Source of the DNA: an uncultured bacterium
GTDB taxonomy: Bacteria; Eisenbacteria; RBG-16-71-46; CAIMUX01
Length of the DNA: 64,000 bases
Assembly (NCBI GenBank): GCA_964371055.1
Contig: CAYJLF010000001.1
Location: 277,639 to 341,638, forward strand
Direction of reading: 5' to 3'
Shown: one piece after another, positions 2 to 46,787 of the stretch
Layout of the letters: every line of letters begins with the position of its first letter
How positions within the stretch are numbered: position 1 is the first letter of the stretch
Program-made: the position numbers and the translations under genes
Notes under the pieces: generated by a model
What the model saw: only the letters and a program-made list of their open reading frames with translations
Database searches by the model: none
Told to the model about the DNA's origin: nothing

Positions 2-916
2 CCCCCGGGAGCGCCGGCGGAGCACTTCGTCTTCTGGGTCGGCCCCCTGCTGACCGCCTACGCTTCCGCCTTCGAGCAGACCGAAACGGAGTGGACCGTC
101 GGATCGGCCGAAGACACGGCCGTCGACGGAATCTGGGAGCAGGTCGATCCCAACGGCACCTGGCACGTGGTCACGCCGGTCCAGCCGGAGGACGACCACA
201 CCCCCGATCCGGGCACGATCTGCTGGGTGACGGGACAGGCGCCGCCCGACTCCGGCGAGGATGACAACGACGTCGAGGGAGGAGCCACGAGTCTCGTCTC
301 GCCGCGGCTCGACCTCGACATCGACGGGCTGGTGATCCTCCGGTACTGGCGCTGGTACACCAACGACACCCAGGGGGCGTCCGACGACGAGTGGGTCGTC
401 GAAGTCAGCGAAGACGACGGCGCCACCTGGAAGGACCTGGAACGGACCTCCGTCAGCGAGCGGCAGTGGACCCGGATGGAGTTCGTCCTCTCCGACCTCA
501 TGACCATGACCAACCAGGTCCGCGTCCGCTTCCGGGCCTCGGATTTCGGCCCCCCCTCCATCGTGGAGGCGGCGGTGGATGACTTCGAGATCGTCTACAT
601 CGGACAGACTCCGGCCGGCGTGGAGGAAACTCTCTACGTCCCGTTCGGGTTCGCGCGCGGGCCGGCCAACCCGGCGCGCCCCGGCTCGGCGGTGCGCTTC
701 GGCCTCGAACGGTCGGGGCCGGTCCAGCTCGCCCTCTACGACATCCAGGGACGCCGGATCCGTACGCTGATCGAGGGGTCGCTGGGCGCCGGAATGCACA
801 CGCTGACCTGGGACGGGCGCGATGACCGCGGACACCTGGTCCCCTCGGGCGCCTACTTCTACCGGCTCGAGGCGGGTCGTCAGGCCCAGAACCGGAAGAT
901 CCTGCTGGTCCACTGA
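2..916 (+). CDS. C-terminal fragment (5'-truncated at the window edge) of a large secreted protein. It is a paralog of the C-terminal region of the C25-like protein at 37716..42551, with a MAM/jelly-roll-like region followed by a FlgD-Ig-like C-terminal sorting-type domain.
   Basis: Frame 2 is open from nt 2. The segment ...DDHTPDPGTICWVTGQ...WVVEVSEDDGATWKDL... aligns to ...DDHTPDPGIRCLVTAN...LAVDVSNDGGVSWAPL... in the 1611-aa protein. The terminal ~80 aa (LALYDIQGRRIRTL...LTWDGRDDRGHLVPSGAYFYRLEA...KILLV) is the FlgD-Ig-like CTD shared with five other ORFs. Confidence 0.6.
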   Translation, partial: PPGAPAEHFVFWVGPLLTAYASAFEQTETEWTVGSAEDTAVDGIWEQVDPNGTWHVVTPVQPEDDHTPDPGTICWVTGQAPPDSGEDDNDVEGGATSLVSPRLDLDIDGLVILRYWRWYTNDTQGASDDEWVVEVSEDDGATWKDLERTSVSERQWTRMEFVLSDLMTMTNQVRVRFRASDFGPPSIVEAAVDDFEIVYIGQTPAGVEETLYVPFGFARGPANPARPGSAVRFGLERSGPVQLALYDIQGRRIRTLIEGSLGAGMHTLTWDGRDDRGHLVPSGAYFYRLEAGRQAQNRKILLVH

Positions 917-23277: not shown

Positions 23278-24180
23278 CTATCGCTGGACGAGGATCTTGC
23301 GGGTGAGACTCCGGCCGTCGGCCTCCGCCCGACAGAGATAAACCCCCTGGTGGACCGGGAGTCCGTGTCGATCGAGCCCATCCCAGGCCAACCGGTGGTA
23401 CCCGGCGTCCATCGGCCCGTCGGCCAGCCGACGAAGGAGGCGGCCCCCGGCGTCGAACAGCAGGACACGGACCTCGGAGGGGCCCGCGAGGCGGAACGAG
23501 ATGGAACCAGCGTCGAGCACCGGGTTGGGCCAGGCGCGCAGATCGGAGAGCGGTCCCCCCGAGCTCGCCGTCGGCGCGTCCACCCAGGCCGGATCGGGCG
23601 CCTCGGGAACGAGCAGGTCGATGGCGTAGACGTAGTCTCCGCCGGTGAGCCCGTTGTTGTTGGCCGCGTTGGCCGTGAGGTAGAAGTGCGCATCCCCGGC
23701 TCCCGCCGCGGGCGCAGTCCAGAGGATCTGCCACGAGGCGGCATCGAGCTGTCCCGCGAAACTCCCGGCGCTGGTCTGCTTGAGGTAGTCCCGAGCGGTG
23801 CCCGGTCCCTCGGAGAGCTGCACGAGCGCAACGTCGACCGGGGAGAGGGCGCCCGCCTCGTTCCCATCGTCCTCGCGCATCACTGTCGTCTCGAATCCCC
23901 AGCGCCGCTGGCCGTCCTGCTGGATGCTGACGGTGAGGGGATAGGTCTGACCGGCGGTATAGGCTGCGGGCAGCCCCGCGATCGACACCAGGCCAGGACC
24001 GCTGTTGAGCGGGAACGAGCCGTGACAGGCGGTACAGGTGTCGAAGGCCGGCGGATCCCCGGCGTGGCCATCCGGCGGCCCCGAGCTGAAGGCGGCGACG
24101 GGCGCGACGTCCCACAGCACGAGCCCTCCGGCCAGAACCAATACATCGGCGAGCGTTCGAACTCGATGACGAGGCTCCAT
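23278..24180 (-). CDS. Secreted CXXCH-motif protein (putative monohaem c-type cytochrome-like) with a FlgD-Ig-like C-terminal domain
   Basis: Signal peptide, then FDTCTACHG near the mature N-terminus. C-terminus WPNPV...VRVLLFDAGGRLLRRL...LAWDGLDRHGLPVHQGVYLCRAEA...KILV. AGGAG Shine-Dalgarno sequence 8 nt before the ATG at 24180. Confidence 0.5.
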   Translation of the reverse strand: MEPRHRVRTLADVLVLAGGLVLWDVAPVAAFSSGPPDGHAGDPPAFDTCTACHGSFPLNSGPGLVSIAGLPAAYTAGQTYPLTVSIQQDGQRRWGFETTVMREDDGNEAGALSPVDVALVQLSEGPGTARDYLKQTSAGSFAGQLDAASWQILWTAPAAGAGDAHFYLTANAANNNGLTGGDYVYAIDLLVPEAPDPAWVDAPTASSGGPLSDLRAWPNPVLDAGSISFRLAGPSEVRVLLFDAGGRLLRRLADGPMDAGYHRLAWDGLDRHGLPVHQGVYLCRAEADGRSLTRKILVQR

Positions 24181-26950: not shown

Positions 26951-28021
26951 TCAGATGAAGCGATAGGTCAGACCGAGCGCGAGGGTCTGCTTGAACTGGC
27001 CGGTCTTGCGAATGGCCGTGCGCAGCGCCTCGCGGTTCTGCAGGCGGCGGTCGTCCGAGACCACGGGCAGGACCGAGTTGTCGTACTTGTCGTAGACCAG
27101 CCGGGTGTAGAGCTTGACCGAGATCAGCTTCGTGAGCTGCGAGGAGAACTCGTTCTCCCAATCGACGTCCACCATCTTGACGTAGTCGGCAACGTCGGTC
27201 GGAAGGTTCCGCTCGCCCGGTCCGGGCCCTTCAAGTTCCGTCGCGGTCAGCAGGTCGAACTCGTCATCCCCCGAGTAGAAGAGCGCCTGATAGAAACCCA
27301 GCTTGCCGGACCAGGCGATCTTCCCTCCGGCCAACTTCGTCTTGTAGTCATTGATCAACTCGAGGCCGCCGTCGTTCGTCCCCTGAGTCTCGGTCGAGAG
27401 GTCGTTCCGGTCGACCTCGTTCTGGAAGACCTGCCGCGAACTCTGCCGGAAGGTGAAACCCAGCCTCGAGAGGAGCTGGTGGTCGGGCTGGTCGATGAAC
27501 TTCCGCGCGATCCCGGCCGATTCCTTGAACTTCAGGGGATTGAAACTCAGCCGGCGTCCGAGCGGATCGGTCAGATCCTGGAACTGGCTCTCGAAGCGGA
27601 CCGAAGCGAACGGGTCAACGTATCCGCCCAGGGTCAGGCGGAGGATCGACTCCAGGTCGATCAGGTCGTTGCTCTTCTCCGGCCGGTCCCAGCTTCGCTC
27701 CCCGTCCACCGTACTGACCACCTGCTGGTGTGTCTGGCCGTAGGCGAGCTTCAGCGTTGAGAGCCAGTTCGCCTTCACGCTGACCTGGTTCTCGAGCGCG
27801 CCGTTCAGGGTCGCGGTCCAGGACATCGCCCCCTTGTCGCCGCCATTCCAGTTGGTCGAGTAGGAGCTCTGCGTCAGCAGCAACCCACCCTCCAGCAGGG
27901 GATACCACTTTCCGGGTTCGAGGACCCGCTTTCCGTCCTTCGCTGCGTCCTCGGCGCCGGCCGGCGCTGCCCACGCGACGAAGAGGACCAGCCCCAACCC
28001 CAGGCACAAGCGTCGCATCAT
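26951..28021 (-). CDS. DUF3078-like outer-membrane beta-barrel protein
   Basis: Signal peptide MMRRLCLGLGLVLFVAWAAPAGA, alternating beta-strand pattern, and a C-terminal ...LGLTYRF aromatic terminus typical of OM beta-barrels. GAGGAGG Shine-Dalgarno sequence before the ATG at 28021. Confidence 0.55.
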   Translation of the reverse strand: MMRRLCLGLGLVLFVAWAAPAGAEDAAKDGKRVLEPGKWYPLLEGGLLLTQSSYSTNWNGGDKGAMSWTATLNGALENQVSVKANWLSTLKLAYGQTHQQVVSTVDGERSWDRPEKSNDLIDLESILRLTLGGYVDPFASVRFESQFQDLTDPLGRRLSFNPLKFKESAGIARKFIDQPDHQLLSRLGFTFRQSSRQVFQNEVDRNDLSTETQGTNDGGLELINDYKTKLAGGKIAWSGKLGFYQALFYSGDDEFDLLTATELEGPGPGERNLPTDVADYVKMVDVDWENEFSSQLTKLISVKLYTRLVYDKYDNSVLPVVSDDRRLQNREALRTAIRKTGQFKQTLALGLTYRFI

Positions 28022-28171
28022 CGGTCTTCTTCCTCCTCTGCGCCCGCCGGATCTACGCAAGGCACCATGCCCGAGCTCGACCCGGCCTTGCCAGTCTCGA
28101 AACACCGGTCCCGATCCGCACGCCGGCCCGGGCCGCTCCCGCGGAGCGTTCGCATCCTTGGGAGCCGCGCA

Positions 28172-29059
28172 TCATTCGTTCGCCGTCCGGGCGAAGACCA
28201 CATTCGACAGGGAGGACTCGTTTCCGGCCTCGTCGATCGCCTTCAGTCCGAATTCATAGCGGGTGGCTGCGGCGAGTCCACGCACCGTGTACTCCTCGGC
28301 CTGACCTGATGGATAGGGTGTGAAGCTGATCTCGGCGGAATCGGCCTCCGCCCAGGTCGCCTCGTCCAGGGACCCGGTCGTGTAGCGCAACATGTACCGC
28401 GCGGATGTGCCCTCCTCACCGTCGTCCCCGGGGGCGGACCAGGCCAGGCGAACGGTGCTCGACGTCACCGCCACGACCTCCAGATCGGTGATCGCCGAGG
28501 GTGGGACACCGTCGGGCGGCGGCAGGTAGAAGGAGTAGTCGACCGACAGCCGCCCCTGGTTGCCCGCCTCATCGATCGCACGCAGAGCGAAGTGATGCAC
28601 CCAGTCGACGCGCAGGCCGGAGACCCGCATCGAGTCCCGTTGCCCGGAGGCACTCGGGGCCGGCAAGCCGGTGATCACTTCGGCCGAGTCCCAGACCGCC
28701 AGCGTGATGACCGTGTCATGGCGGCGCAGCTCGTAGGCGTGGGCCCGCCCCGCATAGCGATCGTCTCCGGGGGCGGTCCAGATCAGCAGCACGACGCCAT
28801 CGCCGGCGACCTGCGCCGACAGGTCATCGATCTGAGCGGGAGGCGTGATGTCCAGTGGCGCGGCCGGATCATCGTCCCCGGAACAGGCGAGGAGGAGCAA
28901 GGGCAGCAGCAGGACGGCCGGCGCCAGCGCCCGGAGCAGCCGCGCCACTCCGCCGCTCGGTCTCGACTCCTCCGCATGGAAAGGTCGGTTCAGACGAAGA
29001 GTGGCGTGCGTTGTCCCCCGGTGGCGCGCGTCGATCTCGTCCTGGTGGAATCTCCCCAT
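28172..29059 (-). CDS. Lipoprotein with two fibronectin type III-like repeats
   Basis: Lipobox LLLLACSGDDD. Two repeats of ...LxWTAPGDDxxxGRAHAYELR... / ...LAWSAPGDDGEEGTSARYMLRY..., each followed by KAIDEAGN. Start taken at the ATG at 29059 with a GGGGAGG Shine-Dalgarno sequence; an internal GTG at 28948 is also possible. Confidence 0.5.
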   Translation of the reverse strand: MGRFHQDEIDARHRGTTHATLRLNRPFHAEESRPSGGVARLLRALAPAVLLLPLLLLACSGDDDPAAPLDITPPAQIDDLSAQVAGDGVVLLIWTAPGDDRYAGRAHAYELRRHDTVITLAVWDSAEVITGLPAPSASGQRDSMRVSGLRVDWVHHFALRAIDEAGNQGRLSVDYSFYLPPPDGVPPSAITDLEVVAVTSSTVRLAWSAPGDDGEEGTSARYMLRYTTGSLDEATWAEADSAEISFTPYPSGQAEEYTVRGLAAATRYEFGLKAIDEAGNESSLSNVVFARTANE

Positions 29060-29090
29060 CGTCAACCTCCCCGTGACACCCGGACTCTGG

Positions 29091-29255
29091 TCAGCTCTTG
29101 CGACTCGTCTTGACCCCGAATGAACTGATCTTCTGGGTCACCTTCTTCGATCCGCACTTCGGACAGGCAACCTTGGCCTTCTCGTGCTCCTTGATTCCGA
29201 GGATGAGGTTGAAGCTTTTGCCGCAGCCCGTGCACTTGTACTCGTAGGTCGGCAT
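29091..29255 (-). CDS. FmdB-family zinc-ribbon protein (54 aa)
   Basis: Not in the track because it is shorter than 60 aa. MPTYEYKCTGCGKSFNLILGIKEHEKAKVACPKCGSKKVTQKISSFGVKTSRKS has two CxxC pairs. AAGGAGG Shine-Dalgarno sequence 7 nt upstream. Confidence 0.7.
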   Translation of the reverse strand: MPTYEYKCTGCGKSFNLILGIKEHEKAKVACPKCGSKKVTQKISSFGVKTSRKS

Positions 29256-29499: not shown

Positions 29500-30543
29500 A
29501 TGCGACTTGCCACCGGACTTTTCGCACTCTTGGTCCTGACCGCTCCGGCCGACGCGCAGCGGCTCTTCGTCGGTCTGGAGGGCACGGGGCTTCCCACCCG
29601 GTCCTCCGACCTGGCAGGGTTTCCCAATGTCTCCTGGAGCGATCACAACGCCTGCGATGTCAGCGGCGCCGCGGCCACTCCCGAAGGGGAACTCCTGATC
29701 TGCGCCGGCCCCTTCACGACACGGCTCTACCGCCTCGCGCTCAGCGGCTCGCCGGAGCTTCTGGCCACGATCTCGGTCGACATTCACGGCATGGGGTATG
29801 GGAACGGAACGCTCTACGGTTTCTCGAACTTCACCTCGCCGCGAGGGATCTACACGATCGACCGGACGACGGGGCAGGCCGCGCTGGCCGTCGACCTGGA
29901 CGCCTCGGGATTCCGCTTCTTCGCGCTCGACTTCAACCCGGACGACGGCCTGCTCTACGGGTACACCGAGTACGGTTCACCGACCGGTCTGTACTCCATC
30001 GATCCGGTCTCGGGCGCCACGACCTTCATCACGGGACCGATCCCGGCGTCCAATACGCAGGGACGCGCACTGGCGGTCGGCCATGGCACGATCTATCTGG
30101 CGGCGACGCGGGGCGCGGACGAGATCCCGCTCTATGCCTACGACCTCGAGGCGGGCGCACAGTGGGTGGCGTTCACAGCGCCCTATCCGCAGTCGAATGC
30201 GACGGGAGGCGCGGCCTGGATCCCGGCGCCCGCGAGCGGTCTGCCCGCGGGGAAGGATGCGTATGGACTCTCCCCCACCATCGACCTCGTCGCGCCAAAT
30301 CCGGTGCGCAACGGAGCGCGGGTCGCGTGGTCGCTTCCAGCCCCGGGTCGGTATCGCCTGGAACTGTTCGATGTGGCCGGACGGTGCGTGTCGGTGCTCG
30401 ACGCCGGGATGATCGATTCAGGCTCCTGGACGACGACCTGGAATCGGACGGTGGAGGGCGCCGGCCTGCCGGCGGGAACCTACTACCTCCGCTTGTGGAC
30501 GGAGGGCGGAGACGCCACGGCCCCGATTCGGCTCATCCGGTAG
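29500..30543 (+). CDS. Secreted beta-propeller-like protein with a FlgD-Ig-like C-terminal domain
   Basis: Signal peptide MRLATGLFALLVLTAPADA with an AGGAGG Shine-Dalgarno sequence. Repetitive LYG/IYT blades. C-terminus APNPVRNGARVAWSLPAPGRYRLELFDVAGRCVSVL... Confidence 0.55.
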   Translation: MRLATGLFALLVLTAPADAQRLFVGLEGTGLPTRSSDLAGFPNVSWSDHNACDVSGAAATPEGELLICAGPFTTRLYRLALSGSPELLATISVDIHGMGYGNGTLYGFSNFTSPRGIYTIDRTTGQAALAVDLDASGFRFFALDFNPDDGLLYGYTEYGSPTGLYSIDPVSGATTFITGPIPASNTQGRALAVGHGTIYLAATRGADEIPLYAYDLEAGAQWVAFTAPYPQSNATGGAAWIPAPASGLPAGKDAYGLSPTIDLVAPNPVRNGARVAWSLPAPGRYRLELFDVAGRCVSVLDAGMIDSGSWTTTWNRTVEGAGLPAGTYYLRLWTEGGDATAPIRLIR

Positions 30544-37715: not shown

Positions 37716-40700
37716 ATGCTGTTCAGCCCGATCCGATTCCCCGGGAGGGGACTCTCCCGCACCTGCGTTTTGGTGCTCGGTCTTGTGACCTGGGGAACCG
37801 ACTCCGCCGTCTCCGCACCGACCAGGGTGATCCCCGCCGACGGTGCCCACGGGGCGCCGCCGCCGTCGGTCCGGGTTCTGGAATCCACGCCTGACCGGCT
37901 GAGCCTGAGCTTCGAGCTCCCCGTGCTCATCGAAGAAGTGGAGCGCAGCCCCGGTTCGACTCGTCACCGCCTCGCCATCCCGGAAGGCGGGGAACTCGGA
38001 CGGCCGGGGGGGCCGCTCCTGCCGGTCTTCACGCGCCTGGTCGCCATCCCGGACGAGGTCGGGGTGCAGTGCTCGTTCGTCAGCCTGGAGAGCGAAGATC
38101 GGGCCGCACCCACCGAGTTCTGGAGCGGGTCGGGCAGAGACGACACCGGTTCGGACCTCGTCGAGATCGGCCGTCCCGCGCTGATGCGGGGCCTGCGCGT
38201 CGTCCCGGTCCGCTTTCGACCCGTGACCTACGATCCGTCCCGAAACATCCTCCGGGTCCACTCCCGCCTCCGGGTCGACCTCCGATTCGAGGGAGAGGAC
38301 CTCGAGAATGCGCGCCCGTCCCGACCCGATGCGGCCGTCGCGCCAAGCTTCGACCGGCTCTGCCGGGAGTTGGTCCTGAACTATGGTGACCGCGAGAAGA
38401 GCGACCGCGCGGGAACCGGCACCTGGCTTCTCATCGCCCCGAACGATCCCGCCGTGACCAACCGCCTGCAGCCGCTGCTCGACTGGCGCAAGCGCCGGGG
38501 GATGCCGGTCCGGCTCGCCACGACCGCGGAGACGGGCACCTCGACCGCCCAGATCAAGTTCTACCTGCAGAACGCTTACCTCAACTGGCCCGTCCCGCCG
38601 GAATTCGTCGTTCTGGCCGGCGATGCCTCCGGCACCTACCAGATCCCGACCTGGTTCGAGGGGTTCTCCGGCTACGGCGGTGAGGGAGATCATCCTTACG
38701 CGCAGTTGGAGGGGAACGACGTCCTCGCCGACGTTCATCTCGGGCGCCTGTCGTTCAACACCCTGGGTGAACTCGAGACGATCGTGGCCAAGCTGGTCGG
38801 CTACGAGCGTGACCCGTACGTGGACGATGCGACCTGGTTCAAGCGCGCCTGCCTGACCGGCGATCCGAATGCCTCGGGCTGGAGCACGGTTCACGTGATG
38901 CAGTGGATCAAGGCGGGCCTGCGGCATCGCGGCTACGCGGAGATCGACACCATCTTCGGAGACCCGTTCGTCGCGCAGATGCAGACGGCGCTCAACCGCG
39001 GTGACACGATCTTCGCCTACCGGGGCTACTGGGGAATGAGCGGCTGGACCAACTCACTGACCTACGCGTTGCTGAACGGACGGAGACTGCCGTTTTCCAT
39101 CATCTCGACCTGCGGCACGGGATCCTTCGCCGCCGAGACCGCACTGTCCGAGGGATTCCTGCGGGCGGGATCGGCTACGACGCCGCGCGGCGCCATCGGA
39201 GCGATCGGCACCGCGACGCTCGGCACCCACACCCGCTTCAACAACACCCTGACCATGGGAATCATGCAGGGCCTGCTCTACGAAGAGACCTACCACCTCG
39301 GCGCCGCACTCAGCCGGGGCAAGCTCGAGCTCTTCCTCAACTACGACGGGAGCGACCAGGCAATCTACGTCGACATCTTCTCGCACTGGAACAACCTGAT
39401 GGGCGATCCGGCGACGGAGTGCTGGACCGGTTTCCCGGAGCTCCTCGCGGTCTCGCATCCCACCTCGATGGCGGTCGGGGATCACGCCCTGTCGGTGGGC
39501 GTCTCCGGCCCGGAGGGACCGGCGGCGGGCGCCCTGGTGTGCGCGTGGAAGACCGCGGGGCTCGGGGGGCCGGAGGTCTACCTCACCGCCCTGACGGATG
39601 AGGAGGGGAACTGCGAGCTGCCGGTCGCCCTGAGCCACGCCGGCGACCTGCTCCTCACCGTGACCAAGCACGACCATCGGCCTTATCTCGCCACCATCCC
39701 GGTCACGCCGCAACCGCTGGTCGTGGGATATCAGTCAGCGTTCGTGGACGACGACAACGCCGGCGAGAGCGCGGGGAACGGAGACGGCTGGGCCAGCCCG
39801 CTCGAGGCTTTGGAGCTGCGGATCCAGCTCAGGAACTTCGGCACGCAGCTCGCGCCCCAGGTGACGGCGGTTCTCTCCTCCGCGGACCCGTATGTCGCCA
39901 TCACCGACGACACGGAGGAGTTCGGCGATCTGCCCGGGGGGCAGTCCGCCTGGTGCGCGGACGACTTCGGTCTCACGATCGATCCCGATTGTCCGGACGG
40001 CCACCTCCTCACGTTGGAACTGCAGATCCTGTCGCCCCTCCAGGAGTGGCGCAACGTCTTCACGCTGCCGGTCGCTTCCGCGCGCCCGGCCGTGGTCGCC
40101 GCGCATGTGCACGACGACGGGAACGAGACCCTCGATCCCGGAGAATCGGCCGACTTCAGCGTGGTCCTGCGCAACGACGGGACGATTCCCGCCGCCAACA
40201 CCACCGTGGAGCTGACCTCCCTCAGCCCCTGGATCTCCGTCCTCGACAGCTCGGGTACCTTCGGGACGATCCCTCCCGGAGCCGAGGCGGAGAATCTGTC
40301 GGACCGTTTCCGTCTGCACGCTTCGCCTCAGACCTTTCCCGGGCACCAGGCCGAGTTCCTGCTCCTCACCCGCTTCAATGGAGGAGCGATCGACACGGCG
40401 TCGGTCGCGATCGAGGTGGGATCGCGCGCCTCGACCGATCCCGCCGGACCCGACCGGTACGGATACGTCGCCTTCGACGATACGGATACGGCGTACGAGG
40501 CGGCGCCGGAGTATGCGTGGATCGAACTCGATCCCGCGCTGGGCGGGAACGGCACGGAGCTGCCGCTGGGCGACTACGGGCACTACCAGGACAAGTCGGG
40601 GACCGTCGAGTTGCCCTTCGCCTTCCGCTTCTACGGGGAGGAGCGCACCCACGCGACGATCTGCTCGAATGGATGGATCGCCCTGACCCCGACCCATCTC

Positions 40701-42551
40701 ACCGTCTACCGGAACACGACCATCCCGGGCGCAGGCGCCCCAAGCGACCTCGTGGCGGTCTTCTGGGACGACCTCTACCAGGATGGAAGCTCCCGGGTCT
40801 TCCACGCGTACGACCCGGTCGGGCATCGATGGATCGTGGAGTGGAGCCGGTTCCGCAACCTCGAAGACGGCTCGCTCGAGACCTTCGAGGCGATCCTGCT
40901 CGACCCACGCTTTCACGACACCGACACGGGAGACGGCGCCATCCTCTTCCAGTACCAGACCATCGCCAATGTCGACGTGCTCGACGGCTACGCCACGGTC
41001 GGGATTCAGGACTTCGACCATACCGATGGCCTGCTCTACTCCTACTTCAATCAGTACGAGGCGGGCGCGGCGACGCTCGAGGCGGAGCGGGCGATCCTCT
41101 TCCAGCCGGTGATTCCCGGTCCGCGCGGCGGAGTCGAGGGGATCGTGCGGAACGAGTCGCTGGGAGGTCTGCCGCTGGCGGGAGCGCAGGTCTCGCTCTA
41201 TCCCGGAGGTCGGACCTTCCCCACCGCCGCGGACGGATCGTTCGAGGGGGGCGTCGCCACCGGCGCCTACCTGGCGGTGGCCAGCCACGCCGGGTTCGCC
41301 CCCGACAGCGTGCTCGATGTCGTCGTGAGCGAGGGCGAGATCGTGCACCTCGAACTCGCTTTGATGGACGACGCAGGACCGACGATCTCCGCGGTCACGG
41401 AACCCGGGCACACGAGCGACACGGCGGGACCCTACAACCTGGAAGCCACGGCCAGCGACCCCAGCGGCGTCGCCTCGGTGGGTCTCTTCTATCGCCTCGA
41501 CGGAGGTGAGTGGCACGAAGTGCCGATGACCGGCGCCGGCCCGACCTACGCGGCCGGGATCCCCGGGGCGCCGGCCGGCACCGAGGTCGAGTATTACATC
41601 TCCGCGATCGACGGCGCGGGACTGGGAGCGTGCAGTCCACCCGGCGCTCCGGCCGAAGCCTACACACTTCTGATCACGACCGTCGCCTACAGCTACGCTG
41701 GCGAGGGCCCCTCCGACGCGGGCTGGACGATCGGCCTGCCGGAGGATGACGCCCTGCGCGGCATCTGGACTCGGGCCGACCCGCTCGCGTCCTGGTTTGG
41801 GGGAGAGCTCATTCAACCGGACGACGACCACACGCCGGATCCCGGCATCCGATGCCTGGTCACGGCCAACGTGATCCCCGGCGGGACCGACCCGGAGGGG
41901 GATGTCGATGGTGGCTGCACGACCGTGCTCAGCCCGGTGATCGACCTGAGCACGGCGACTTCCGCCTGGGTGGAGTACTGGAGATGGTTCGGCGAAATGG
42001 GGGACGCCACCGACGATGAACTGGCGGTCGACGTGTCCAACGACGGCGGAGTCTCCTGGGCTCCGCTGGAGCGCGTGCCGGAGAGCGATCCGTCCTGGCG
42101 GCAGGTCACCCGCGATCTCGGCGCCATCCTCCCTTTGACCGGGCAGATGCGCCTGCGCTGCCGCGCGTGCGATCTCGGCGAGCCGACGCAGCTCGAAGCA
42201 GCCTGGGACGATCTTTCCATCGAGGTGTTCGTGCCGGGGCCAACGTCCGCCTTAGGGTCCGTCTCGGCCGGCGCGATCGACGCCCTGGTGCCGGGGCGGC
42301 CGAATCCCTTCGCCGGCATGACCACGATCCGCTACCACACCGCGAAGACGGGAAAAGCGAGCCTCGCCATCTTCGATGTGCACGGCCGGGTGATCCGGCG
42401 CCTGTGGGAAGGGCCCTGCCCTGCGGGCGAACACCAGGCGAGCTGGGACGGCCGCGACACGCAGGGATCCGCCGCCCCGGCCGGGGTCTACTTCGTCCGT
42501 CTCGAGACCGCCGGGTATCGGGGCGAAAGCAAGCTCCTGGTCGTCCGGTGA
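37716..42551 (+). CDS. Very large (1611-aa) secreted peptidase-C25 (gingipain)-family homolog with multiple downstream Ig/jelly-roll-like domains and a FlgD-Ig-like CTD. The catalytic Cys is conserved, but the catalytic His position reads Tyr
   Basis: FVVLAGD...GNDVLADVHLGRLS...VGYERD, AYRGYWGMSGW and LPFSIISTCGTGSF align to RgpB YVLLIGD...GNDHYNEVFIGRFS...IHYERN, ANYTGHGSETAW and LPFIFDVACVNGDF. Start trimmed to MLFSPIRF (ATG at 37716, GGAGGG Shine-Dalgarno sequence). Confidence 0.8.
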   Translation: MLFSPIRFPGRGLSRTCVLVLGLVTWGTDSAVSAPTRVIPADGAHGAPPPSVRVLESTPDRLSLSFELPVLIEEVERSPGSTRHRLAIPEGGELGRPGGPLLPVFTRLVAIPDEVGVQCSFVSLESEDRAAPTEFWSGSGRDDTGSDLVEIGRPALMRGLRVVPVRFRPVTYDPSRNILRVHSRLRVDLRFEGEDLENARPSRPDAAVAPSFDRLCRELVLNYGDREKSDRAGTGTWLLIAPNDPAVTNRLQPLLDWRKRRGMPVRLATTAETGTSTAQIKFYLQNAYLNWPVPPEFVVLAGDASGTYQIPTWFEGFSGYGGEGDHPYAQLEGNDVLADVHLGRLSFNTLGELETIVAKLVGYERDPYVDDATWFKRACLTGDPNASGWSTVHVMQWIKAGLRHRGYAEIDTIFGDPFVAQMQTALNRGDTIFAYRGYWGMSGWTNSLTYALLNGRRLPFSIISTCGTGSFAAETALSEGFLRAGSATTPRGAIGAIGTATLGTHTRFNNTLTMGIMQGLLYEETYHLGAALSRGKLELFLNYDGSDQAIYVDIFSHWNNLMGDPATECWTGFPELLAVSHPTSMAVGDHALSVGVSGPEGPAAGALVCAWKTAGLGGPEVYLTALTDEEGNCELPVALSHAGDLLLTVTKHDHRPYLATIPVTPQPLVVGYQSAFVDDDNAGESAGNGDGWASPLEALELRIQLRNFGTQLAPQVTAVLSSADPYVAITDDTEEFGDLPGGQSAWCADDFGLTIDPDCPDGHLLTLELQILSPLQEWRNVFTLPVASARPAVVAAHVHDDGNETLDPGESADFSVVLRNDGTIPAANTTVELTSLSPWISVLDSSGTFGTIPPGAEAENLSDRFRLHASPQTFPGHQAEFLLLTRFNGGAIDTASVAIEVGSRASTDPAGPDRYGYVAFDDTDTAYEAAPEYAWIELDPALGGNGTELPLGDYGHYQDKSGTVELPFAFRFYGEERTHATICSNGWIALTPTHLTVYRNTTIPGAGAPSDLVAVFWDDLYQDGSSRVFHAYDPVGHRWIVEWSRFRNLEDGSLETFEAILLDPRFHDTDTGDGAILFQYQTIANVDVLDGYATVGIQDFDHTDGLLYSYFNQYEAGAATLEAERAILFQPVIPGPRGGVEGIVRNESLGGLPLAGAQVSLYPGGRTFPTAADGSFEGGVATGAYLAVASHAGFAPDSVLDVVVSEGEIVHLELALMDDAGPTISAVTEPGHTSDTAGPYNLEATASDPSGVASVGLFYRLDGGEWHEVPMTGAGPTYAAGIPGAPAGTEVEYYISAIDGAGLGACSPPGAPAEAYTLLITTVAYSYAGEGPSDAGWTIGLPEDDALRGIWTRADPLASWFGGELIQPDDDHTPDPGIRCLVTANVIPGGTDPEGDVDGGCTTVLSPVIDLSTATSAWVEYWRWFGEMGDATDDELAVDVSNDGGVSWAPLERVPESDPSWRQVTRDLGAILPLTGQMRLRCRACDLGEPTQLEAAWDDLSIEVFVPGPTSALGSVSAGAIDALVPGRPNPFAGMTTIRYHTAKTGKASLAIFDVHGRVIRRLWEGPCPAGEHQASWDGRDTQGSAAPAGVYFVRLETAGYRGESKLLVVR

Positions 42552-42623
42552 GTCCGGGCGATCCTCGAGGAGGGAGATCGGCTGATCGCCCCCGAGCGAC
42601 GGCCAGGACGGAACGGAGAGGCC

Positions 42624-43724
42624 ATGTGCCACAGGACGGAATCATCGATCCGGATCGGAGCTCTCGTCGGCTTCCGCGCGGCTGTTGTCGGCCTGGCTGG
42701 GATCATCGCGCCGGCCCTCAGCATCGACGGCGACGCCCGCGCCGCGATCCTCCATGTCCCCGGTGACTACCCGACCATCCAGGAAGCAATCTACGCCGCC
42801 TCCGCCGGAGATCAGGTGGTGGTCGGTCCGGGCACTTACCACGAGAGGCTCCTGGTGGCCCGCAGCATCCATCTCCTTGGAGAATTCGGCTACGAGGGCA
42901 CCGTGATCGACGCGGATGGACAAGACGCCGCGGTTCGCTTCGAATCAACGCTCGCGGATGGAGCGATCCTGGAAGGGTTCACGATCCAGAATGGGGCGGG
43001 AGGCGGAGTCGACGCCGGCGGCGTGTGCGCCATCGACTGTTCCCCGATCGTTCGCGGGAACCTCATCCGATTCAACTGGGAGACCGGCCTGTCCGCTCGC
43101 GGCGAGGGTACGCCTCTCTTCGAGAACAACCTCGTGATCGAGAACGGCCAGGGAATCATGCACTGGCAGTCCGAGGCGACGATCCGAGGCAACACGATCG
43201 CCCGCAATGCGGGCTCCGGGATCGAGCTTGCCAACCGGACGCCGGCCGAGATCAGCGGCAACCTGATCTACGCGAACGAGGGCAGCGGCATCGAAGGAGC
43301 GATCCCGGACGGCGTGCCGACCTGCCGGATCGAGGGGAACACCCTGATCGGCAACGAAAACGGAATCGAAGTCTCGTACTTCGCAGACTCGATCGTGTTC
43401 CGCCGGAACATCGTGGCCACTAACCGGGGCCGTGGCGTGTTGTGCTGGGGCCGAGGCAGATCCTGCCCCGTTCTCTCCTGCAACGATGTCTGGGGGAACC
43501 CGGTCAACTACGAGGGAGCCGATCCCGGATCGGACGACATCTCGCAGGATCCGCTCTTCTGCGACGCGCCCCGGGAGGACTTCGCCATCGCGGCGGGCTC
43601 ACCCTGCCTCCCGGAGTCGAGCCCCTGCGGCATGTTGATCGGCGCACTGGCCGAGGGGTGTGGCCCCACTCCGGTGCGGACACAGACCTGGGGATCGATC
43701 AAGGCCGCCTATCGAGCCGAGTAA
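42624..43724 (+). CDS. Secreted right-handed parallel beta-helix repeat protein (pectate-lyase/NosD-like fold)
   Basis: Signal peptide. Repeated GNxIxxNxGxGI beta-helix rungs (GNTIARNAGSGIE, GNLIYANEGSGIE, GNTLIGNENGIE). Cys-rich C-terminus. No FlgD CTD. Confidence 0.65.
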   Translation: MCHRTESSIRIGALVGFRAAVVGLAGIIAPALSIDGDARAAILHVPGDYPTIQEAIYAASAGDQVVVGPGTYHERLLVARSIHLLGEFGYEGTVIDADGQDAAVRFESTLADGAILEGFTIQNGAGGGVDAGGVCAIDCSPIVRGNLIRFNWETGLSARGEGTPLFENNLVIENGQGIMHWQSEATIRGNTIARNAGSGIELANRTPAEISGNLIYANEGSGIEGAIPDGVPTCRIEGNTLIGNENGIEVSYFADSIVFRRNIVATNRGRGVLCWGRGRSCPVLSCNDVWGNPVNYEGADPGSDDISQDPLFCDAPREDFAIAAGSPCLPESSPCGMLIGALAEGCGPTPVRTQTWGSIKAAYRAE

Positions 43725-43842
43725 TCGTCGCGGACCTCCCCCGCGTTCTGCACCGTCAGGTCCGACCAGCAGGTCGTGCCCGGCCTGCGTTCTCTACGAC
43801 GAACGCCGGCATCCGCCAGCACATCGCGATGTTCGATGCGCC

Positions 43843-45339
43843 CTACTTCAACAGCAGCATCTTCCGGCTGCCAAACTCCGCGCCGGCGCGGACCGCATAG
43901 AAGTAAATCCCGGCGGGCAGCGGCCGCCCGTCGTCGCCGGTGCCGTCCCAGAGGTAGGTGAACTCACCCGGAGTCTCGTGCACGAGCACGGCGGAACGCA
44001 CGATCCGCCCGGCGGCATCGTGGATCCGCACGGCGACGCTTCCCGCCCGGTCGATCGCGTAACCGATGGAGGTTTCCCGATCGAACGGGTTGGGGCTGCT
44101 GCCGCGTAACCTCAGCCCGCCCGCACGAACGCCGGCCCCGATCGATTCATCCACCTGGCCGTCAGGCACCGAGGAGGAGGGGTTGCGGCGGTAGAGCACG
44201 ATGTGGCCCTGCAGGATGTAAATCGGCGGCGTGTGGCCGTTGTAGTTGTAGTTGCAGTCCGTGCAGGTCTGGCCGTTGACACACTCCGGGTTCGTCGGAC
44301 GGCAGTAGTTGACGTACGGCTGGACGTTGTAGTCGAAGGTGTTGTCCTCGCCCGGGAGGATGGCGCCGGTCAGGTCGACCTCCCACGCCGGGGCGGCGTC
44401 CCCGGGGCACCAGCCGGCGCGGTTATAGGTCCACGTTCCTCCCTGCGGGCTGCAGCTGTTCTGCGCGCAGTCGCCGCGCCACAGGTTGTGCTGGAAGACG
44501 GTGCCGTTGGCGGTGACCTGATGCCACCGGTTGCAGAACTCGGCGCAGTTGGCCGTGTTCCCCTGCCCGTGACCGGTGCAGTAGACGCGCCCCTTCACGG
44601 CATCGGGCGCTCCGTCGATCGGCACCGTCAAAGGCGCGAAGTGATTCTCGATCGGGTCATCGGGGTCGCCGTAGAGCGTCCAGTAGCTGGACCAGAGGTT
44701 GATCACCTCGTACGGGATCATGTCGGGTTCGCCGTGGATGAAGGCAAAGTCGATCGTGACAACCCACCCGCGCGTACCGCCGATCCAGGTCTCGATGTAG
44801 TTGCTCAGGAGCACGTCGCCGCGCAGCAGCTGCATGTAGTCGGTGACATCGATCTCCCAGGTGCAGCTCACCGGACGAGGCGGCGGCGTGATGTCGTAGG
44901 GCGTCACGACTCTCCCGATCTCGATCCACTCCAGTTCGCGCCCGCCGTCCGCTCCGATCCGGCCGGTCTCGCGGCCGAGGCGGAGATAGCCGATCCGGTC
45001 CCACGGATCGCAGTCGCCAGGCGACTCGGGACACTCGATCCGGTAGAACATGAGGACTTTCGAGACGTGAAGCGAAGTGTCAGGGAAGGTGAAGGTCGAG
45101 TCGTGCGACGTCGCCCAGTTGTAGAAGTCTCGGTCGTAGGTACGCACCCAGGTGGTATCGGGATCCTCGGCCCGGGCCGGGCCGACGACCGCGGCGAAGA
45201 GGACAAGGAGGGAGAGCAACCCGACCGTGAGGGTCCCTCGGACGAGGTCGACGGCCCTTTCCCTTCGCGGGTGAACGCGACCGGCCGGGGGCGCGACGCT
45301 CGAGCAGACCATCAAGGCGGACCGGACGCTGTGGCGCAT
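43843..45339 (-). CDS. Peptide-N4-(N-acetyl-beta-glucosaminyl)asparagine amidase F (PNGase F) homolog with a FlgD-Ig-like CTD
   Basis: TFTFPDTSLHVSKVLMFYRIECPESPGDCDPWDRIGYL...EIGRVVTPY...EIDVTDYMQLL...YIETW parallels PNGase F TFTFPADVTTVKTIKMFIKNECPNKTCDEWDRYANVYV...EIGRFITPY...EIDVTDFKSLL...YTETW. The catalytic D (CDPWDR), E (AEFCNRWH) and E (NRAGWCPGD) equivalents are present. Start at MRHSV, with GGAGG. Confidence 0.8.
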   Translation of the reverse strand: MRHSVRSALMVCSSVAPPAGRVHPRRERAVDLVRGTLTVGLLSLLVLFAAVVGPARAEDPDTTWVRTYDRDFYNWATSHDSTFTFPDTSLHVSKVLMFYRIECPESPGDCDPWDRIGYLRLGRETGRIGADGGRELEWIEIGRVVTPYDITPPPRPVSCTWEIDVTDYMQLLRGDVLLSNYIETWIGGTRGWVVTIDFAFIHGEPDMIPYEVINLWSSYWTLYGDPDDPIENHFAPLTVPIDGAPDAVKGRVYCTGHGQGNTANCAEFCNRWHQVTANGTVFQHNLWRGDCAQNSCSPQGGTWTYNRAGWCPGDAAPAWEVDLTGAILPGEDNTFDYNVQPYVNYCRPTNPECVNGQTCTDCNYNYNGHTPPIYILQGHIVLYRRNPSSSVPDGQVDESIGAGVRAGGLRLRGSSPNPFDRETSIGYAIDRAGSVAVRIHDAAGRIVRSAVLVHETPGEFTYLWDGTGDDGRPLPAGIYFYAVRAGAEFGSRKMLLLK

Positions 45340-45569
45340 GACGTTTCCTCCGCGGAACGGATGGTGAAGGAGGCCTCTCGGCCGGCGCGTGCTCGATGGG
45401 GGGGAGCGCGCGTCCCGGCACACGTTGGCGGAATCCTAGCCCGCCGGAGGCGCCGGGGCAATGGTGGTCCATGCCCGCTGGCCCTTGCTCTCCTTCCGGC
45501 TCCGTGCGATACTTGGTCCCGCGTTCCGCGATGGTCGCCTGATGAACCGGGATGCGAAGGACGTGTGAA

Positions 45570-46787
45570 ATGAAGTGGATCGGTTCGCTTCGGATCGCGA
45601 CCTGGGCCGCGGCCATGATCCTGGGTTCATGGGCTTCGCCCGCCTGGAGCTACGAAGGGGCCGTCGTCGTCTGGGGATCCAACAGCCACGGCCAACTCGA
45701 CGTCCCGGCGCCCGACAGCGGCTTCGTCGCGATCTCCGCGGGCGACTTCCATAGCCTCGGGCTCACCGCCGACCGAACCATCGTGGCCTGGGGATGGAAC
45801 GACTACGGGCAGTGCGAGGTGCCGGTTCCCAATGCCCGGTTTGTGGCGATCGATGCCAGCGGCGTCTACAACCTGGCCCTCAGAGAGGACGGAAGCATCG
45901 CTCCCTGGGGACTCAACAGCTACGGGCAGTGCGACGTGCCGGAGCCGAACCTCGGGTTCCGTGCCATCGCGGCCGGGGGGCTTCACGGTCTCGCGCTCCG
46001 GGACGACGGTTCGGTCGCCGGTTGGGGCTACAACGACTACGGACAATGCGATCCCCCGACGCCGAACTCCACGTTCGTCAAGATCTCGGCCGGGTCACTG
46101 CACAGCCTGGGGCTGAGGGCCGACGGAACGATCTCGGCCTGGGGCGCCGACTACTATGGGCAATGCGCGATCCCGGCGCCGAACAGCGGGTTCGTGGCAG
46201 TGGCGGCGGGTGGAGAGCACAGCCTCGGCCTGAGGGCCGACGGAGTGGTTGTCGCCTGGGGACTGAACAACTTCGGGCAATGCACGGTGCCGCCCCCCAA
46301 CTCCGGCTTCGTGGCGATCGCCGCCGGCCAGCAATTCAGCCTGGGAATCAAGTCCGACGGCACCATCATCGGATGGGGGTACAACAACCACGGTCAGTGC
46401 AACCCATCCCAGCCGAACAGCGGTTTCGTTTCCGTCTCGGCTGGGTACGCCCACGGGATGGGACTGCGCCTCCACCCCGCGGGCGTCCGGGACGAGGTCA
46501 CGGGAGCCACCGGGGTCACGCTCCTGCCCAACCACCCGAATCCGTTCCAGCCGACAACGACGATCCGGTTCGAGCTGCTCGACGCGCGATGGGCGCTGCT
46601 CCAGGTCTACGACATCCAGGGGCACCTCGTGCGCACCCTGGTCTCCGGTCCCGTGTCGCCCGGACGGCACGAAATGACCTGGGACGGTTCGTCGGACCAA
46701 GGCAGGGTTGTGCCGGCAGGCGTCTATCTCTGCCGGCTTCAGGCACGCGGGGTGGAGCGGACCCGGTCCATGGTCCTGACCAGATAG
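45570..46787 (+). CDS. RCC1-repeat (regulator of chromosome condensation-like) beta-propeller protein with a FlgD-Ig-like CTD
   Basis: Seven repeats of the form WGxNxYGQCxVPxPNxGFVAIAAGxxHSLGLRxDG. Signal peptide MKWIGSLRIATWAAAMILGSWASPAWS. CTD NHPNPFQPTTTIRFELL...LQVYDIQGHLVRTL. Confidence 0.75.
   Translation: MKWIGSLRIATWAAAMILGSWASPAWSYEGAVVVWGSNSHGQLDVPAPDSGFVAISAGDFHSLGLTADRTIVAWGWNDYGQCEVPVPNARFVAIDASGVYNLALREDGSIAPWGLNSYGQCDVPEPNLGFRAIAAGGLHGLALRDDGSVAGWGYNDYGQCDPPTPNSTFVKISAGSLHSLGLRADGTISAWGADYYGQCAIPAPNSGFVAVAAGGEHSLGLRADGVVVAWGLNNFGQCTVPPPNSGFVAIAAGQQFSLGIKSDGTIIGWGYNNHGQCNPSQPNSGFVSVSAGYAHGMGLRLHPAGVRDEVTGATGVTLLPNHPNPFQPTTTIRFELLDARWALLQVYDIQGHLVRTLVSGPVSPGRHEMTWDGSSDQGRVVPAGVYLCRLQARGVERTRSMVLTR

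What the first reader, a model, noticed from the sequence alone, without database searches (positions are those of the whole stretch)
37716..46787. Arsenal of large secreted enzymes all bearing the same ~80-aa FlgD-Ig-like C-terminal domain
- **Six members:** The ORFs end in a near-identical domain of the form (N/H)PNP(F/V)...(I/V)RF.L......L.(I/V).D..GR.(V/I)R.L.......G.H...WDG.D..G..(V/L)P.GVY(F/L).RL.A.......K.(L/I)L(V/L).
- **Which ORFs:** The 5'-truncated ORF at 2..916; the CXXCH protein at 23278..24180; the beta-propeller at 29500..30543; the C25 homolog at 37716..42551; the PNGase F homolog at 43843..45339; the RCC1 propeller at 45570..46787.
- **Domain type:** This is the FlgD-Ig / T9SS-CTD-type sorting module. 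It is attached here to catalytically unrelated cargo, namely a protease, an N-glycanase, propellers and a cytochrome.
- **Clustering and duplication:** Four of the six are clustered within 9 kb together with a beta-helix protein. The first ORF of the window is a paralogous copy of the C25 protein's C-terminal half, i.e. a recent segmental duplication.
- **Interpretation:** This looks like a dedicated surface/secreted toolkit routed through one export or attachment pathway.
Basis: partly seen in the sequence, partly recalled or inferred. Interest (0 to 1): 0.6.

Follow-up and report, generated by a model that had tools for sequence, protein, structure and literature searches.

The report
Secreted proteins sharing a T9SS-type tail
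Six unrelated exported proteins in this stretch of an uncultured bacterium's genome end in the same small sorting domain that Bacteroidota-type bacteria use to pass proteins through their outer membrane; this arrangement is common and already recognised, so the finding is real but ordinary.

Summary
Exactly six ORFs in the window end in an ~85-aa domain (Pfam FlgD_ig), and leave-one-out HMMs recover each copy at E 1e-13 to 1e-27, with nothing else below E 0.1.

Several details are wrong:
- The copies are 21-38% identical, not near-identical.
- Three CTD proteins, not four, lie in the 9-kb stretch.
- ORF 2..916 is the end of a full-length 1623-aa paralog, not a recent segmental duplication.

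The domain is the PorU/PorZ-like subtype of the type IX secretion (T9SS) type A C-terminal domain:
- Its profile matches genuine PorU CTDs (hhalign 99.6%, E 1e-23).
- The best structural match is P. gingivalis PorU.
- It sits at the extreme C-terminus in 132 of 132 relatives.
- All five complete proteins have signal-peptide-like N-termini.

The organism is most likely Candidatus Eisenbacteria. NCBI already names such proteins there 'T9SS type A sorting domain-containing protein', and the profile hits about 500,000 representative proteins.

I found no T9SS machinery in the window or its flanks and could not screen the genome. Only the C25/beta-helix pairing is conserved, so this is not a dedicated toolkit locus.

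One side observation: the whole C25-like family lacks the canonical catalytic His.

Verdict: a new member of a known kind, of low interest.

The parts
2..916 (+). 3' end (304 aa) of a full-length 1623-aa C25-like paralog whose start lies upstream of the window. The CTD is encoded at 644-913.
   Evidence: FlgD_ig E 1.1e-9 and TIGR04183 25.8 bits. The full gene is seen in L154 with Propeptide_C25 + Peptidase_C25 + CarboxypepD_reg + FlgD_ig. It is 49% identical to the window C25 protein over full length.
23278..24180 (-). 300-aa exported protein: signal-like N-terminus, choice-of-anchor V domain with one CXXCH, and a CTD (23281-23550).
   Evidence: NF041895 E 3.8e-25; FlgD_ig E 1.5e-10; TIGR04183 24.2 bits. 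The gene call is on record.
29500..30543 (+). 347-aa exported beta-propeller-like protein (DUF6923/DUF4394) with the most divergent CTD (30271-30540).
   Evidence: DUF6923 E 1.7e-7; FlgD_ig E 2e-5 (24.9 bits, below the gathering score of 27); TIGR04183 22.2 bits, just below the cutoff of 23. Leave-one-out HMM E 2e-13.
37716..42551 (+). 1611-aa C25-like giant protein: signal-like N-terminus, C25 propeptide, C25 domain (aa 244-568; Cys466 kept, canonical His replaced by Tyr), CarboxypepD_reg domain, a region shared with ORF 2..916, and a CTD (42279-42548).
   Evidence: Peptidase_C25 E 2.5e-43. Gingipain R alignment and family alignment. Not PorU: NF033707 28.9 bits against a cutoff of 420. CTD model pLDDT 95.8.
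42624..43724 (+). 366-aa right-handed beta-helix (NosD-like) protein with a signal-like N-terminus and no CTD. It is the only conserved neighbour of the C25 paralogs.
   Evidence: Beta_helix E 1.4e-30. The CTD HMM does not hit it. Homologs lie in 16 related loci, next to the C25 gene in most Eisenbacteria loci, and there they do carry the CTD.
43843..45339 (-). 498-aa PNGase F homolog with a signal-like N-terminus and a CTD (43846-44115).
   Evidence: phmmer E 6.4e-32 to PNGase F 1PGS, covering residues 23-284 of 314. D60, E118 and E206 are conserved. FlgD_ig E 1.5e-11.
45570..46787 (+). 405-aa RCC1-repeat beta-propeller with a signal peptide-like N-terminus and a CTD (46515-46784).
   Evidence: RCC1_2 E 7.3e-59; FlgD_ig E 1.5e-10. 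The gene call is on record in 23 contigs.

Best explanation
The six ORFs are Sec-exported proteins that carry, at the extreme C-terminus, the type A C-terminal sorting domain (CTD) of the type IX secretion system. It is the PorU/PorZ-like subtype, which has an extra WDGxDxxG hairpin; Pfam models that subtype as 'FlgD_ig'.

Shown here:
- homology to genuine PorU CTDs;
- an Ig-like 3+4 beta-sandwich fold;
- a strictly C-terminal position;
- signal-peptide-like N-termini;
- unrelated passenger domains.

Inferred from how T9SS works in Bacteroidota: after Sec export the folded CTD is recognised in the periplasm and passed through an outer-membrane SprA/Sov translocon to PorV. The cargo is then released or fixed to the cell surface, with or without CTD removal by a PorU-type sortase.

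The host is most likely a Candidatus Eisenbacteria (Eiseniibacteriota) MAG, whose genomes hold many such CTD proteins. The six genes are members of that large cargo set that happen to lie close together. They are not one functional locus, apart from the conserved pairing of a C25-like gene with a beta-helix gene.
For: - Exactly six CTDs are found, robust to leave-one-out testing.
- TIGR04183 (T9SS type A CTD) scores 19.1-25.8 bits against a cutoff of 23. All six also align to the CTD segment of the PorU model NF033707.
- The window CTD HMM hits the C-termini of genuine PorU genes sitting directly upstream of PorV in metagenome contigs at E 1e-9 to 1e-13. One such pair was confirmed: PorU 1248 bits, PorV 504 bits.
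- hhalign of the window-type CTD profile against ten of those PorU CTDs gives 99.6% probability, E 1e-23, over 86 columns.
- The AlphaFold2 model has pLDDT 95.8. The top Foldseek hit is PorU 6ZA2 (TM 0.67-0.71), followed by PorZ 5M11 (0.68), the mirolase CTD, a NucA CTD in the T9SS translocon complex, and the RgpB CTD.
- The sequence keeps the conserved Gly at the start of beta4 (invariant G in D..GR) and, in four of six copies, the Lys in the last strand. PMC11285876 reports both as functionally important.
- 132 of 132 CTD matches in 77 related loci end within 20 aa of the ORF end, 115 of them within 3 aa.
- All five complete proteins have a hydrophobic, signal-like N-terminus.
- NCBI already names close relatives 'T9SS type A sorting domain-containing protein [Candidatus Eisenbacteria bacterium]'.
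- A T9SS review notes that CTDs are sometimes labelled as FlgD_ig superfamily.
- One cargo carries a 'choice-of-anchor' domain. By NCBIfam's naming convention (my own knowledge), this class is found ahead of alternative C-terminal sorting signals.
Against: - No T9SS core gene (PorV, GldM, or any T9SS family in Pfam or NCBIfam) is in the 64-kb window or in 10 kb on each side. The rest of the genome could not be screened.
- Three of six CTDs fall just below the TIGR04183 cutoff. Pfam Por_Secre_tail matches only one, below its gathering score.
- A GC-biased PorV motif scan of metagenomes returned PorU-PorV pairs. The ones I could identify were Bacteroidota (Hymenobacteraceae, Chitinophagaceae). 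It also returned a PorV/PorQ-family gene from Elusimicrobiota. None could be assigned to Eisenbacteria.
- The searchable literature does not report T9SS in Eisenbacteria. It treats T9SS as a Bacteroidota system that 'may be present' in some other FCB phyla.
- The same domain profile also matches proteins with up to 23 internal tandem copies, so the fold is not exclusively a sorting signal.
Confidence: 0.7

Rival explanations
1. The tail is the same CTD fold, but in this lineage it is read by a different or reduced sorting system. Candidates are a PorV/PorQ-family barrel with a non-canonical processing enzyme, or the 'PorU2/PorV2' putative type IX sorting system modelled by NCBIfam, rather than the canonical Bacteroidota T9SS.
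For: - No canonical T9SS gene was seen in about 84 kb of this contig, nor any PorV or GldM in the 81 loci held at the time.
- NCBIfam holds models for PorU2 (NF052324) and PorV2 (NF052325).
- In a 70% GC Elusimicrobiota contig, a protein with this CTD sits directly upstream of a PorV/PorQ-family gene (NF033709, 127 bits). That is well outside Bacteroidota.
- Eisenbacteria carry greatly expanded C25-like families that are related to PorU only weakly (72 bits at most, against a cutoff of 420) and lack its catalytic His.
Against: - No PorV/PorQ, PorU2 or PorV2 homolog was found near any CTD gene in the window or in the Eisenbacteria loci.
- The window C25 protein does not match PorU2 at E <= 0.01.
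- Failing to see machinery in about 2% of a genome says little.
Confidence: 0.15
2. The tail is a generic Ig-like (E-set/FlgD_ig) module that serves as a stalk, an adhesion domain or a carbohydrate-binding domain on secreted proteins. It is not an export signal, and secretion proceeds by another route.
For: - Pfam's best match is FlgD_ig, not Por_Secre_tail.
- Foldseek also finds FlgD and the Fn-like domains of C5a peptidase at similar TM scores (0.6-0.7).
- The profile hits proteins with many internal tandem copies.
Against: - The domain occurs once and at the extreme C-terminus in 132 of 132 relatives. That is not expected of a generic Ig module.
- It shares a specific profile with PorU CTDs (E 1e-23), including the terminal K-x-x-L motif.
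- Passenger domains are unrelated to one another.
Confidence: 0.12
3. The ORFs are flagellar FlgD-related proteins, as JGI's automatic names for relatives suggest.
For: - JGI names many short relatives 'flagellar hook assembly protein FlgD'.
- There are weak hits to FlgD equivalog models and to FlgD structures.
Against: - Scores of 16-33 bits fall far short of the FlgD cutoffs of 230-383, and only the Ig-like segment of FlgD aligns.
- The N-terminal parts are a C25 domain, a PNGase F homolog, RCC1 repeats and so on.
- No flagellar genes are in the window.
Confidence: 0.01

Closest known systems
T9SS type A C-terminal domain (TIGR04183 / Pfam PF18962 Por_Secre_tail), especially the PorU/PorZ CTD subtype solved in 6ZA2 and 5M11
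   Same: - About 85 aa, at the extreme C-terminus, with an Ig-like beta-sandwich fold.
- PNPF start, D..GR loop with a conserved Gly, GVY strand, and a K-x-L-L-x-R end.
- The extra hairpin after strand 5 (WDGxDxxG), as in PorU and PorZ.
- Attached to unrelated Sec-exported passengers.

   Different: - The host is not Bacteroidota.
- Half of the copies score just under the curated cutoff.
- In P. gingivalis the hairpin-bearing CTDs of PorU and PorZ are the uncleaved ones. Here that subtype is on ordinary cargo.
- The machinery was not observed.
Gingipains and PorU (MEROPS family C25, clan CD cysteine peptidases)
   Same: The 1611-aa protein has a C25 propeptide and a C25 domain (149 bits). It keeps the catalytic Cys and the Asp aligned with the gingipain S1 Asp, and like both relatives it ends in a CTD.
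   Different: - The canonical Gly-His-Gly catalytic His is replaced by Tyr/Trp/Phe in nearly all of the 108 aligned homologs (only two distant ones keep GHG), whereas RgpB and ten genuine PorUs keep it.
- It scores 28.9 bits against a cutoff of 420 on the PorU model.
- It is about 500 aa longer, with extra C-terminal domains.
- There are three paralogs within about 50 kb.
PNGase F of Elizabethkingia meningoseptica (PDB 1PGS/1PNF)
   Same: Both PNGase F domains align (E 6e-32), and D60, E118 and E206 are conserved.
   Different: It carries an added linker and a CTD, and comes from a high-GC candidate phylum.
FlgD Ig-like domain (Pfam PF13860)
   Same: This is the best Pfam match for all six tails, and the fold is similar.
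   Different: There is no FlgD N-terminal domain or Tudor-like scaffold. The resemblance is limited to the Ig-like module. The Pfam family evidently also captures T9SS CTDs.

Membership tests
T9SS type A CTD (TIGR04183 / PF18962) | Match to the family model above the curated cutoff | tested here: inconclusive
   TIGR04183 scores 25.8, 24.2 and 23.8 (pass) and 22.2, 20.6 and 19.1 (fail) against a cutoff of 23. PF18962 matches only the C25 protein, at 22.4 bits against 27. Most database relatives carry both PF18962 and PF13860.
T9SS type A CTD (TIGR04183 / PF18962) | Homology to the CTD of proven T9SS proteins | tested here: met
   hhalign against ten PorU CTDs taken from PorU-PorV loci: 99.6% probability, E 1e-23.
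T9SS type A CTD (TIGR04183 / PF18962) | Located at the extreme C-terminus of the protein | tested here: met
   True for six of six in the window. In related loci, 132 of 132 matches end within 20 aa of the ORF end.
T9SS type A CTD (TIGR04183 / PF18962) | Compact Ig-like 3+4 beta-sandwich like the solved CTDs | tested here: met
   AlphaFold2 pLDDT 95.8, seven strands. Foldseek: PorU 6ZA2 TM 0.67-0.71, PorZ 0.68, mirolase CTD 0.59. FlgD and Fn-like domains score similarly, so the fold alone does not discriminate.
T9SS type A CTD (TIGR04183 / PF18962) | N-terminal Sec signal peptide on the cargo | tested here: met
   All five complete proteins have a basic N-terminal region followed by a hydrophobic segment (mean Kyte-Doolittle 2.0-3.0 over 10 aa) within the first 55 residues. 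This is a heuristic; no SignalP run was possible.
T9SS type A CTD (TIGR04183 / PF18962) | Genome encodes the T9SS core (SprA/Sov, PorV, PorU, GldK/L/M/N) | tested here: inconclusive
   None is in the window or in 10 kb on either side. Metagenome PorV hits could not be tied to this lineage.
T9SS type A CTD (TIGR04183 / PF18962) | CTD-dependent export and cleavage or attachment | not testable with these tools
   Requires experiment.
Peptidase C25 (gingipain/PorU) | Pfam PF01364 above the gathering score | tested here: met
   149.2 bits against 23, plus Propeptide_C25 at 43.2 bits.
Peptidase C25 (gingipain/PorU) | Catalytic His-Cys dyad of clan CD | tested here: not met
   The Cys is conserved (C466, 99% of 108 homologs). 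The His of the G-H-G motif is Tyr in the window protein and Tyr/Trp/Phe in nearly all aligned homologs. RgpB and ten PorUs keep the His.
T9SS sortase PorU (NF033707) | Full-length match above the cutoff | tested here: not met
   28.9 bits against 420, and only the CTD segment aligns. A genuine PorU scores 1248 bits.
FlgD flagellar hook cap protein | Full-length FlgD architecture and an equivalog-level score | tested here: not met
   At most 33 bits against cutoffs of 230-383, and only the Ig-like segment aligns. No FlgD N-terminal domain is present.
PNGase F | Both domains present, with catalytic residues D60, E118 and E206 | tested here: met
   E 6.4e-32 over residues 23-284 of 1PGS. The motifs WDR, YxETW and CAExC are conserved. 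The residue roles come from my knowledge of the PNGase F mutagenesis literature.

The most novel reading that the evidence does not exclude
Candidatus Eisenbacteria, and perhaps other non-Bacteroidota lineages such as the Elusimicrobiota contig seen here, may route a large PorU-type-CTD cargo set through a non-canonical type IX-like sorting pathway. The greatly expanded giant C25-like proteins, which keep the Cys but lack the clan-CD catalytic His, would then form a distinct functional class. They could be a relocated-His protease, a pseudo-protease or adhesin, or an alternative CTD-processing enzyme, rather than gingipain- or PorU-like peptidases.
Probability: 0.12. Interest if true: 0.6.

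Novelty: new member of a known kind. Interest (0 to 1): 0.2.

Why it matters
As it stands the finding matters little. C-terminal T9SS-type sorting domains on diverse secreted proteins are a textbook feature of Bacteroidota and their relatives. Annotation pipelines already label these proteins in Eisenbacteria, and the domain profile matches about half a million representative proteins.

Two things are useful:
- 'FlgD' labels on such proteins are misleading and should be read as secretion tails.
- The cargo list gives a first hint of the extracellular lifestyle of an uncultured phylum. It includes a PNGase F with intact catalytic residues, RCC1 and DUF6923 propellers, a CXXCH choice-of-anchor protein, and several giant C25-like proteins.

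Two questions remain worth following: whether this phylum has a canonical T9SS at all, and what a family-wide His-less C25 domain does.

Tried and rejected
1. T9SS genes in the window. Pfam and NCBIfam scans of about 45 ORFs found none.
2. Local HMMs for PorV and GldM, built from FASTA files in the PMC7323717 supplement. No hit in the window or in the 81 loci held at that point.
3. The Fidelibacterota C25 homolog as a possible PorU next to PorV. It is not PorU, and its neighbours are type IV pilus and poly-gamma-glutamate genes.
4. A GC-biased DNA pattern for the PorV motif P-D-[AS]-R-[AS]-[AG]-x-M-G in metagenome contigs.
   - It returned 72 loci, most of them holding a PorV-family match.
   - The high-GC ones I could identify were Elusimicrobiota, Hymenobacteraceae and Chitinophagaceae.
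5. Tetranucleotide similarity to assign those loci. It is dominated by GC content and not discriminating: the Elusimicrobiota locus scores 0.93.
6. Window flanks through exact-protein look-ups. No T9SS families appeared. An FGE-sulfatase protein beyond the right end is not followed by gldLMN-like genes.
7. Cluster look-ups for source names of the window proteins returned no names.
8. Literature searches linking Eisenbacteria to T9SS returned nothing.
10. A structure model of the C25 domain was not attempted.
11. The idea that the 9-kb stretch is a conserved operon was rejected.


Full report
**The observation.** The window is about 69% G+C. It reads like ordinary chromosome, with mfd, a class A PBP, asnB, a phosphoglucomutase, FTCD, SOD, a peroxiredoxin and a BatA operon.

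Translations of the six named ORFs all end in a similar ~85-aa segment.
- Pfam places all six in FlgD_ig (PF13860), E 2e-5 to 1.5e-11.
- An HMM built from the six tails finds exactly those six in the six-frame translation of the window. The next ORF scores E 0.28.
- In a leave-one-out test each omitted tail is still recovered at E 1e-13 to 1e-27.

So the shared domain is real and far beyond chance.

Several details need correcting.
- The tails are 21-38% identical, not near-identical.
- Only three CTD proteins lie in 37716-46787. The beta-helix protein there lacks the domain.
- ORF 2..916 is not a duplicated half-gene. The contig upstream of the window shows it is the end of a complete 1623-aa C25-like paralog, preceded by a third paralog of 1611 aa. 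The three are 49-53% identical over full length.

**Whose genome.** The RCC1 protein occurs, identical, on 23 metagenome-assembled contigs; the longest shown is 434 kb.

Relatives of the C25-like protein in a species-level genome collection are led by Candidatus Eisenbacteria MAGs, at 39-50% identity with several paralogs per genome. More distant copies occur in Cloacimonadota, Marinimicrobia/Neomarinimicrobiota and Fidelibacterota. Tetranucleotide composition agrees with the Eisenbacteria loci but is driven mostly by GC.

I take the host to be Eisenbacteria or a close relative. NCBI files this phylum among unplaced candidate phyla.

**What the tail is.**
- *Family models.* NCBIfam's T9SS type A sorting-domain model TIGR04183 scores 19.1-25.8 bits against a cutoff of 23, so three copies pass and three narrowly fail. 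All six also align to the CTD segment of the PorU model.
- *Genuine PorU CTDs.* A metagenome scan made for another purpose returned real PorU-PorV gene pairs. One was confirmed at 1248 and 504 bits. The window-derived CTD HMM hit the C-termini of those PorUs at E 1e-9 to 1e-13.
- *Shared motif.* An alignment of ten such PorU tails shows the same pattern: PNPF..T..F, D..SGRLV, WDGRD..G, GVY.YR, KL.IL.
- *Profile comparison.* A profile-profile comparison with the window-type CTD gives 99.6% probability, E 1e-23.
- *Structure.* An AlphaFold2 model of the C25 protein's tail, built with 126 sequences, has pLDDT 95.8 and seven strands. Its best PDB match is P. gingivalis PorU (TM 0.67-0.71). PorZ, the mirolase CTD, a NucA CTD bound in the T9SS translocon complex and the RgpB CTD follow. 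FlgD and the Fn-like domains of C5a peptidase score similarly, so the fold alone does not decide the question.
- *Published CTD features.* PMC11285876 describes the CTD as a 3+4 Ig-like sandwich and notes an extra hairpin after strand 5 in PorU and PorZ. It identifies a conserved Gly at the start of strand 4 and a Lys in the last strand as functionally important. The window tails have the hairpin-length insertion, an invariant Gly in D..GR, and the Lys in four of six copies.
- *Position.* In 77 related loci, all 132 matches to the CTD HMM end within 20 residues of the ORF's end, and 115 of them within 3.
- *Signal peptides.* All five complete window proteins, and the beta-helix protein, begin with a signal-peptide-like segment. 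This is a heuristic only.

**How known it is.** A database search with the six tails returned 500 proteins. Most carry both Por_Secre_tail and FlgD_ig Pfam labels.
- NCBI names include 'T9SS type A sorting domain-containing protein [Candidatus Eisenbacteria bacterium]' and 'FlgD immunoglobulin-like domain containing protein'.
- JGI often mislabels them 'flagellar hook assembly protein FlgD'.

A full HMMER scan of 1.84 billion cluster representatives found 500,794 matches, 341,483 of them at E <= 1e-10. The top scorers hold up to 23 tandem copies.

A T9SS review notes that CTDs are sometimes labelled as FlgD_ig superfamily. A study of a Rubrivirga alginate lyase shows the same signal peptide plus C-terminal 'FlgD Ig-like' layout. 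The module is therefore common and already recognised.

**The passengers.**
- The PNGase F homolog aligns to 1PGS over both domains (E 6e-32) and keeps D60, E118 and E206.
- The RCC1 protein is a clean RCC1-repeat propeller.
- The 347-aa protein is a DUF6923/DUF4394-like propeller.
- The 'cytochrome' is a choice-of-anchor V protein with one CXXCH.
- The C25-like protein has a C25 propeptide and domain (149 bits) but is not PorU (28.9 bits against 420).
  - Aligned to gingipain R and to ten genuine PorUs, it keeps the catalytic Cys.
  - It has Tyr where they have the catalytic His of G-H-G.
  - Of 108 aligned homologs from Eisenbacteria and other FCB-type phyla, nearly all have Tyr, Trp or Phe there. 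Only two distant ones keep GHG.
  - C466, E479, H505 and H557 are conserved.
  - Whether it is an active protease is open.

**Is it a locus?** Homologs of the beta-helix protein occur in 16 related loci. In most Eisenbacteria loci they sit next to the C25 gene, and there they carry the CTD. PNGase F, RCC1, the propeller, the choice-of-anchor V protein and the flanking genes have no counterpart in those loci, apart from one weak match for the sulfatase/TPR gene.

The 9-kb 'cluster' is therefore not a conserved unit. CTD genes are simply dense in these genomes: about 55 additional CTD ORFs in roughly 1.3 Mb of related loci, besides the central C25 genes.

**The pathway.** This is the weak link.
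- I found no T9SS core gene in the window or in 10 kb on each side.
- Local PorV and GldM HMMs found nothing in the window or in the 81 loci held at the time.
- The GC-biased PorV scan found PorU-PorV pairs. Those I could identify were Hymenobacteraceae and Chitinophagaceae.
- A 70% GC contig carrying a CTD protein directly upstream of a PorV/PorQ-family gene turned out to be Elusimicrobiota.
- Nothing could be tied to Eisenbacteria.
- The searchable literature does not mention T9SS in this phylum.

I could not reach the rest of the MAG, so the presence of the machinery is inferred, not shown.

**Verdict.** The best explanation (confidence 0.7) is Sec export followed by CTD-dependent type IX-like passage or attachment.

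The main rivals are:
- the same CTD read by a non-canonical sorting system (0.15);
- a generic Ig-like module with no export role (0.12).

A flagellar FlgD role is excluded by the domain architecture.

The finding is a new member of a known kind and of low interest. The His-less C25 family and the unresolved machinery in Eisenbacteria are the only parts that might repay further work.

Noticed in passing
window 37716-42551 (aa 435-471), and homologs in L005-L081: The C25-like family has the motif YRG[YWF]xGMSGW where gingipain R and ten genuine PorUs have Y.GHG, so the canonical clan-CD catalytic His is missing. This holds for nearly all of the 108 aligned homologs; only two distant ones keep GHG. 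The Cys (TCGTGSF) is 99% conserved, and E479, H505 and H557 are also conserved.
   Followed up: partly
L154 1-9812 (contig upstream of window position 1): Two more full-length C25-like paralogs (1611 and 1623 aa) lie in tandem. The second runs into the window as ORF 2..916. The three paralogs are 49-53% identical.
   Followed up: yes
window 42624-43724; L006 7939-10263, L011 8080-9816, L073 7805-9307 and others: NosD-like beta-helix proteins are the one conserved neighbour of the C25 paralogs in Eisenbacteria. Elsewhere they carry the CTD, but the window copy ends without one.
   Followed up: partly
L136 10869-13522 and L131 1016-2830: In a ~70% GC Elusimicrobiota contig, a protein ending in the same WDG-type CTD sits directly upstream of a PorV/PorQ-family gene (NF033709, 127 bits). 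This pairs a CTD with a PorV-family gene well outside the FCB group.
   Followed up: partly
P0323-P0346: The top hits of the CTD profile among 1.84 billion representative proteins contain 8-23 tandem copies of the domain. The same fold therefore also serves as an internal repeat module, not only as a terminal signal.
   Followed up: no
window 23278-29137 (minus strand): The choice-of-anchor V/CXXCH CTD protein lies downstream of four genes: a 391-aa ORF with no family match, a protein with cytochrome bd subunit I-like and cbb3-type cytochrome c domains, a DUF3078 outer-membrane-type protein, and an fn3 protein. This may be a redox-related envelope operon.
   Followed up: no
L002 11229-20956, compared with window 46798 onward: In one assembly (ERZ13692939) the sequence downstream of the RCC1 gene differs. 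It has a 432-aa peroxiredoxin call, then proline dehydrogenase, an EF-hand protein and a 971-aa multiheme-like protein. This is either strain-level rearrangement or a chimeric contig.
   Followed up: no
L155 1-1077 (about 9 kb beyond the window's right end): An fn3 + BACON_2 + FGE-sulfatase protein lies here. The FGE-sulfatase fold is shared with GldK/PorK, but no gldLMN-like genes follow it, so it is probably unrelated to T9SS.
   Followed up: partly
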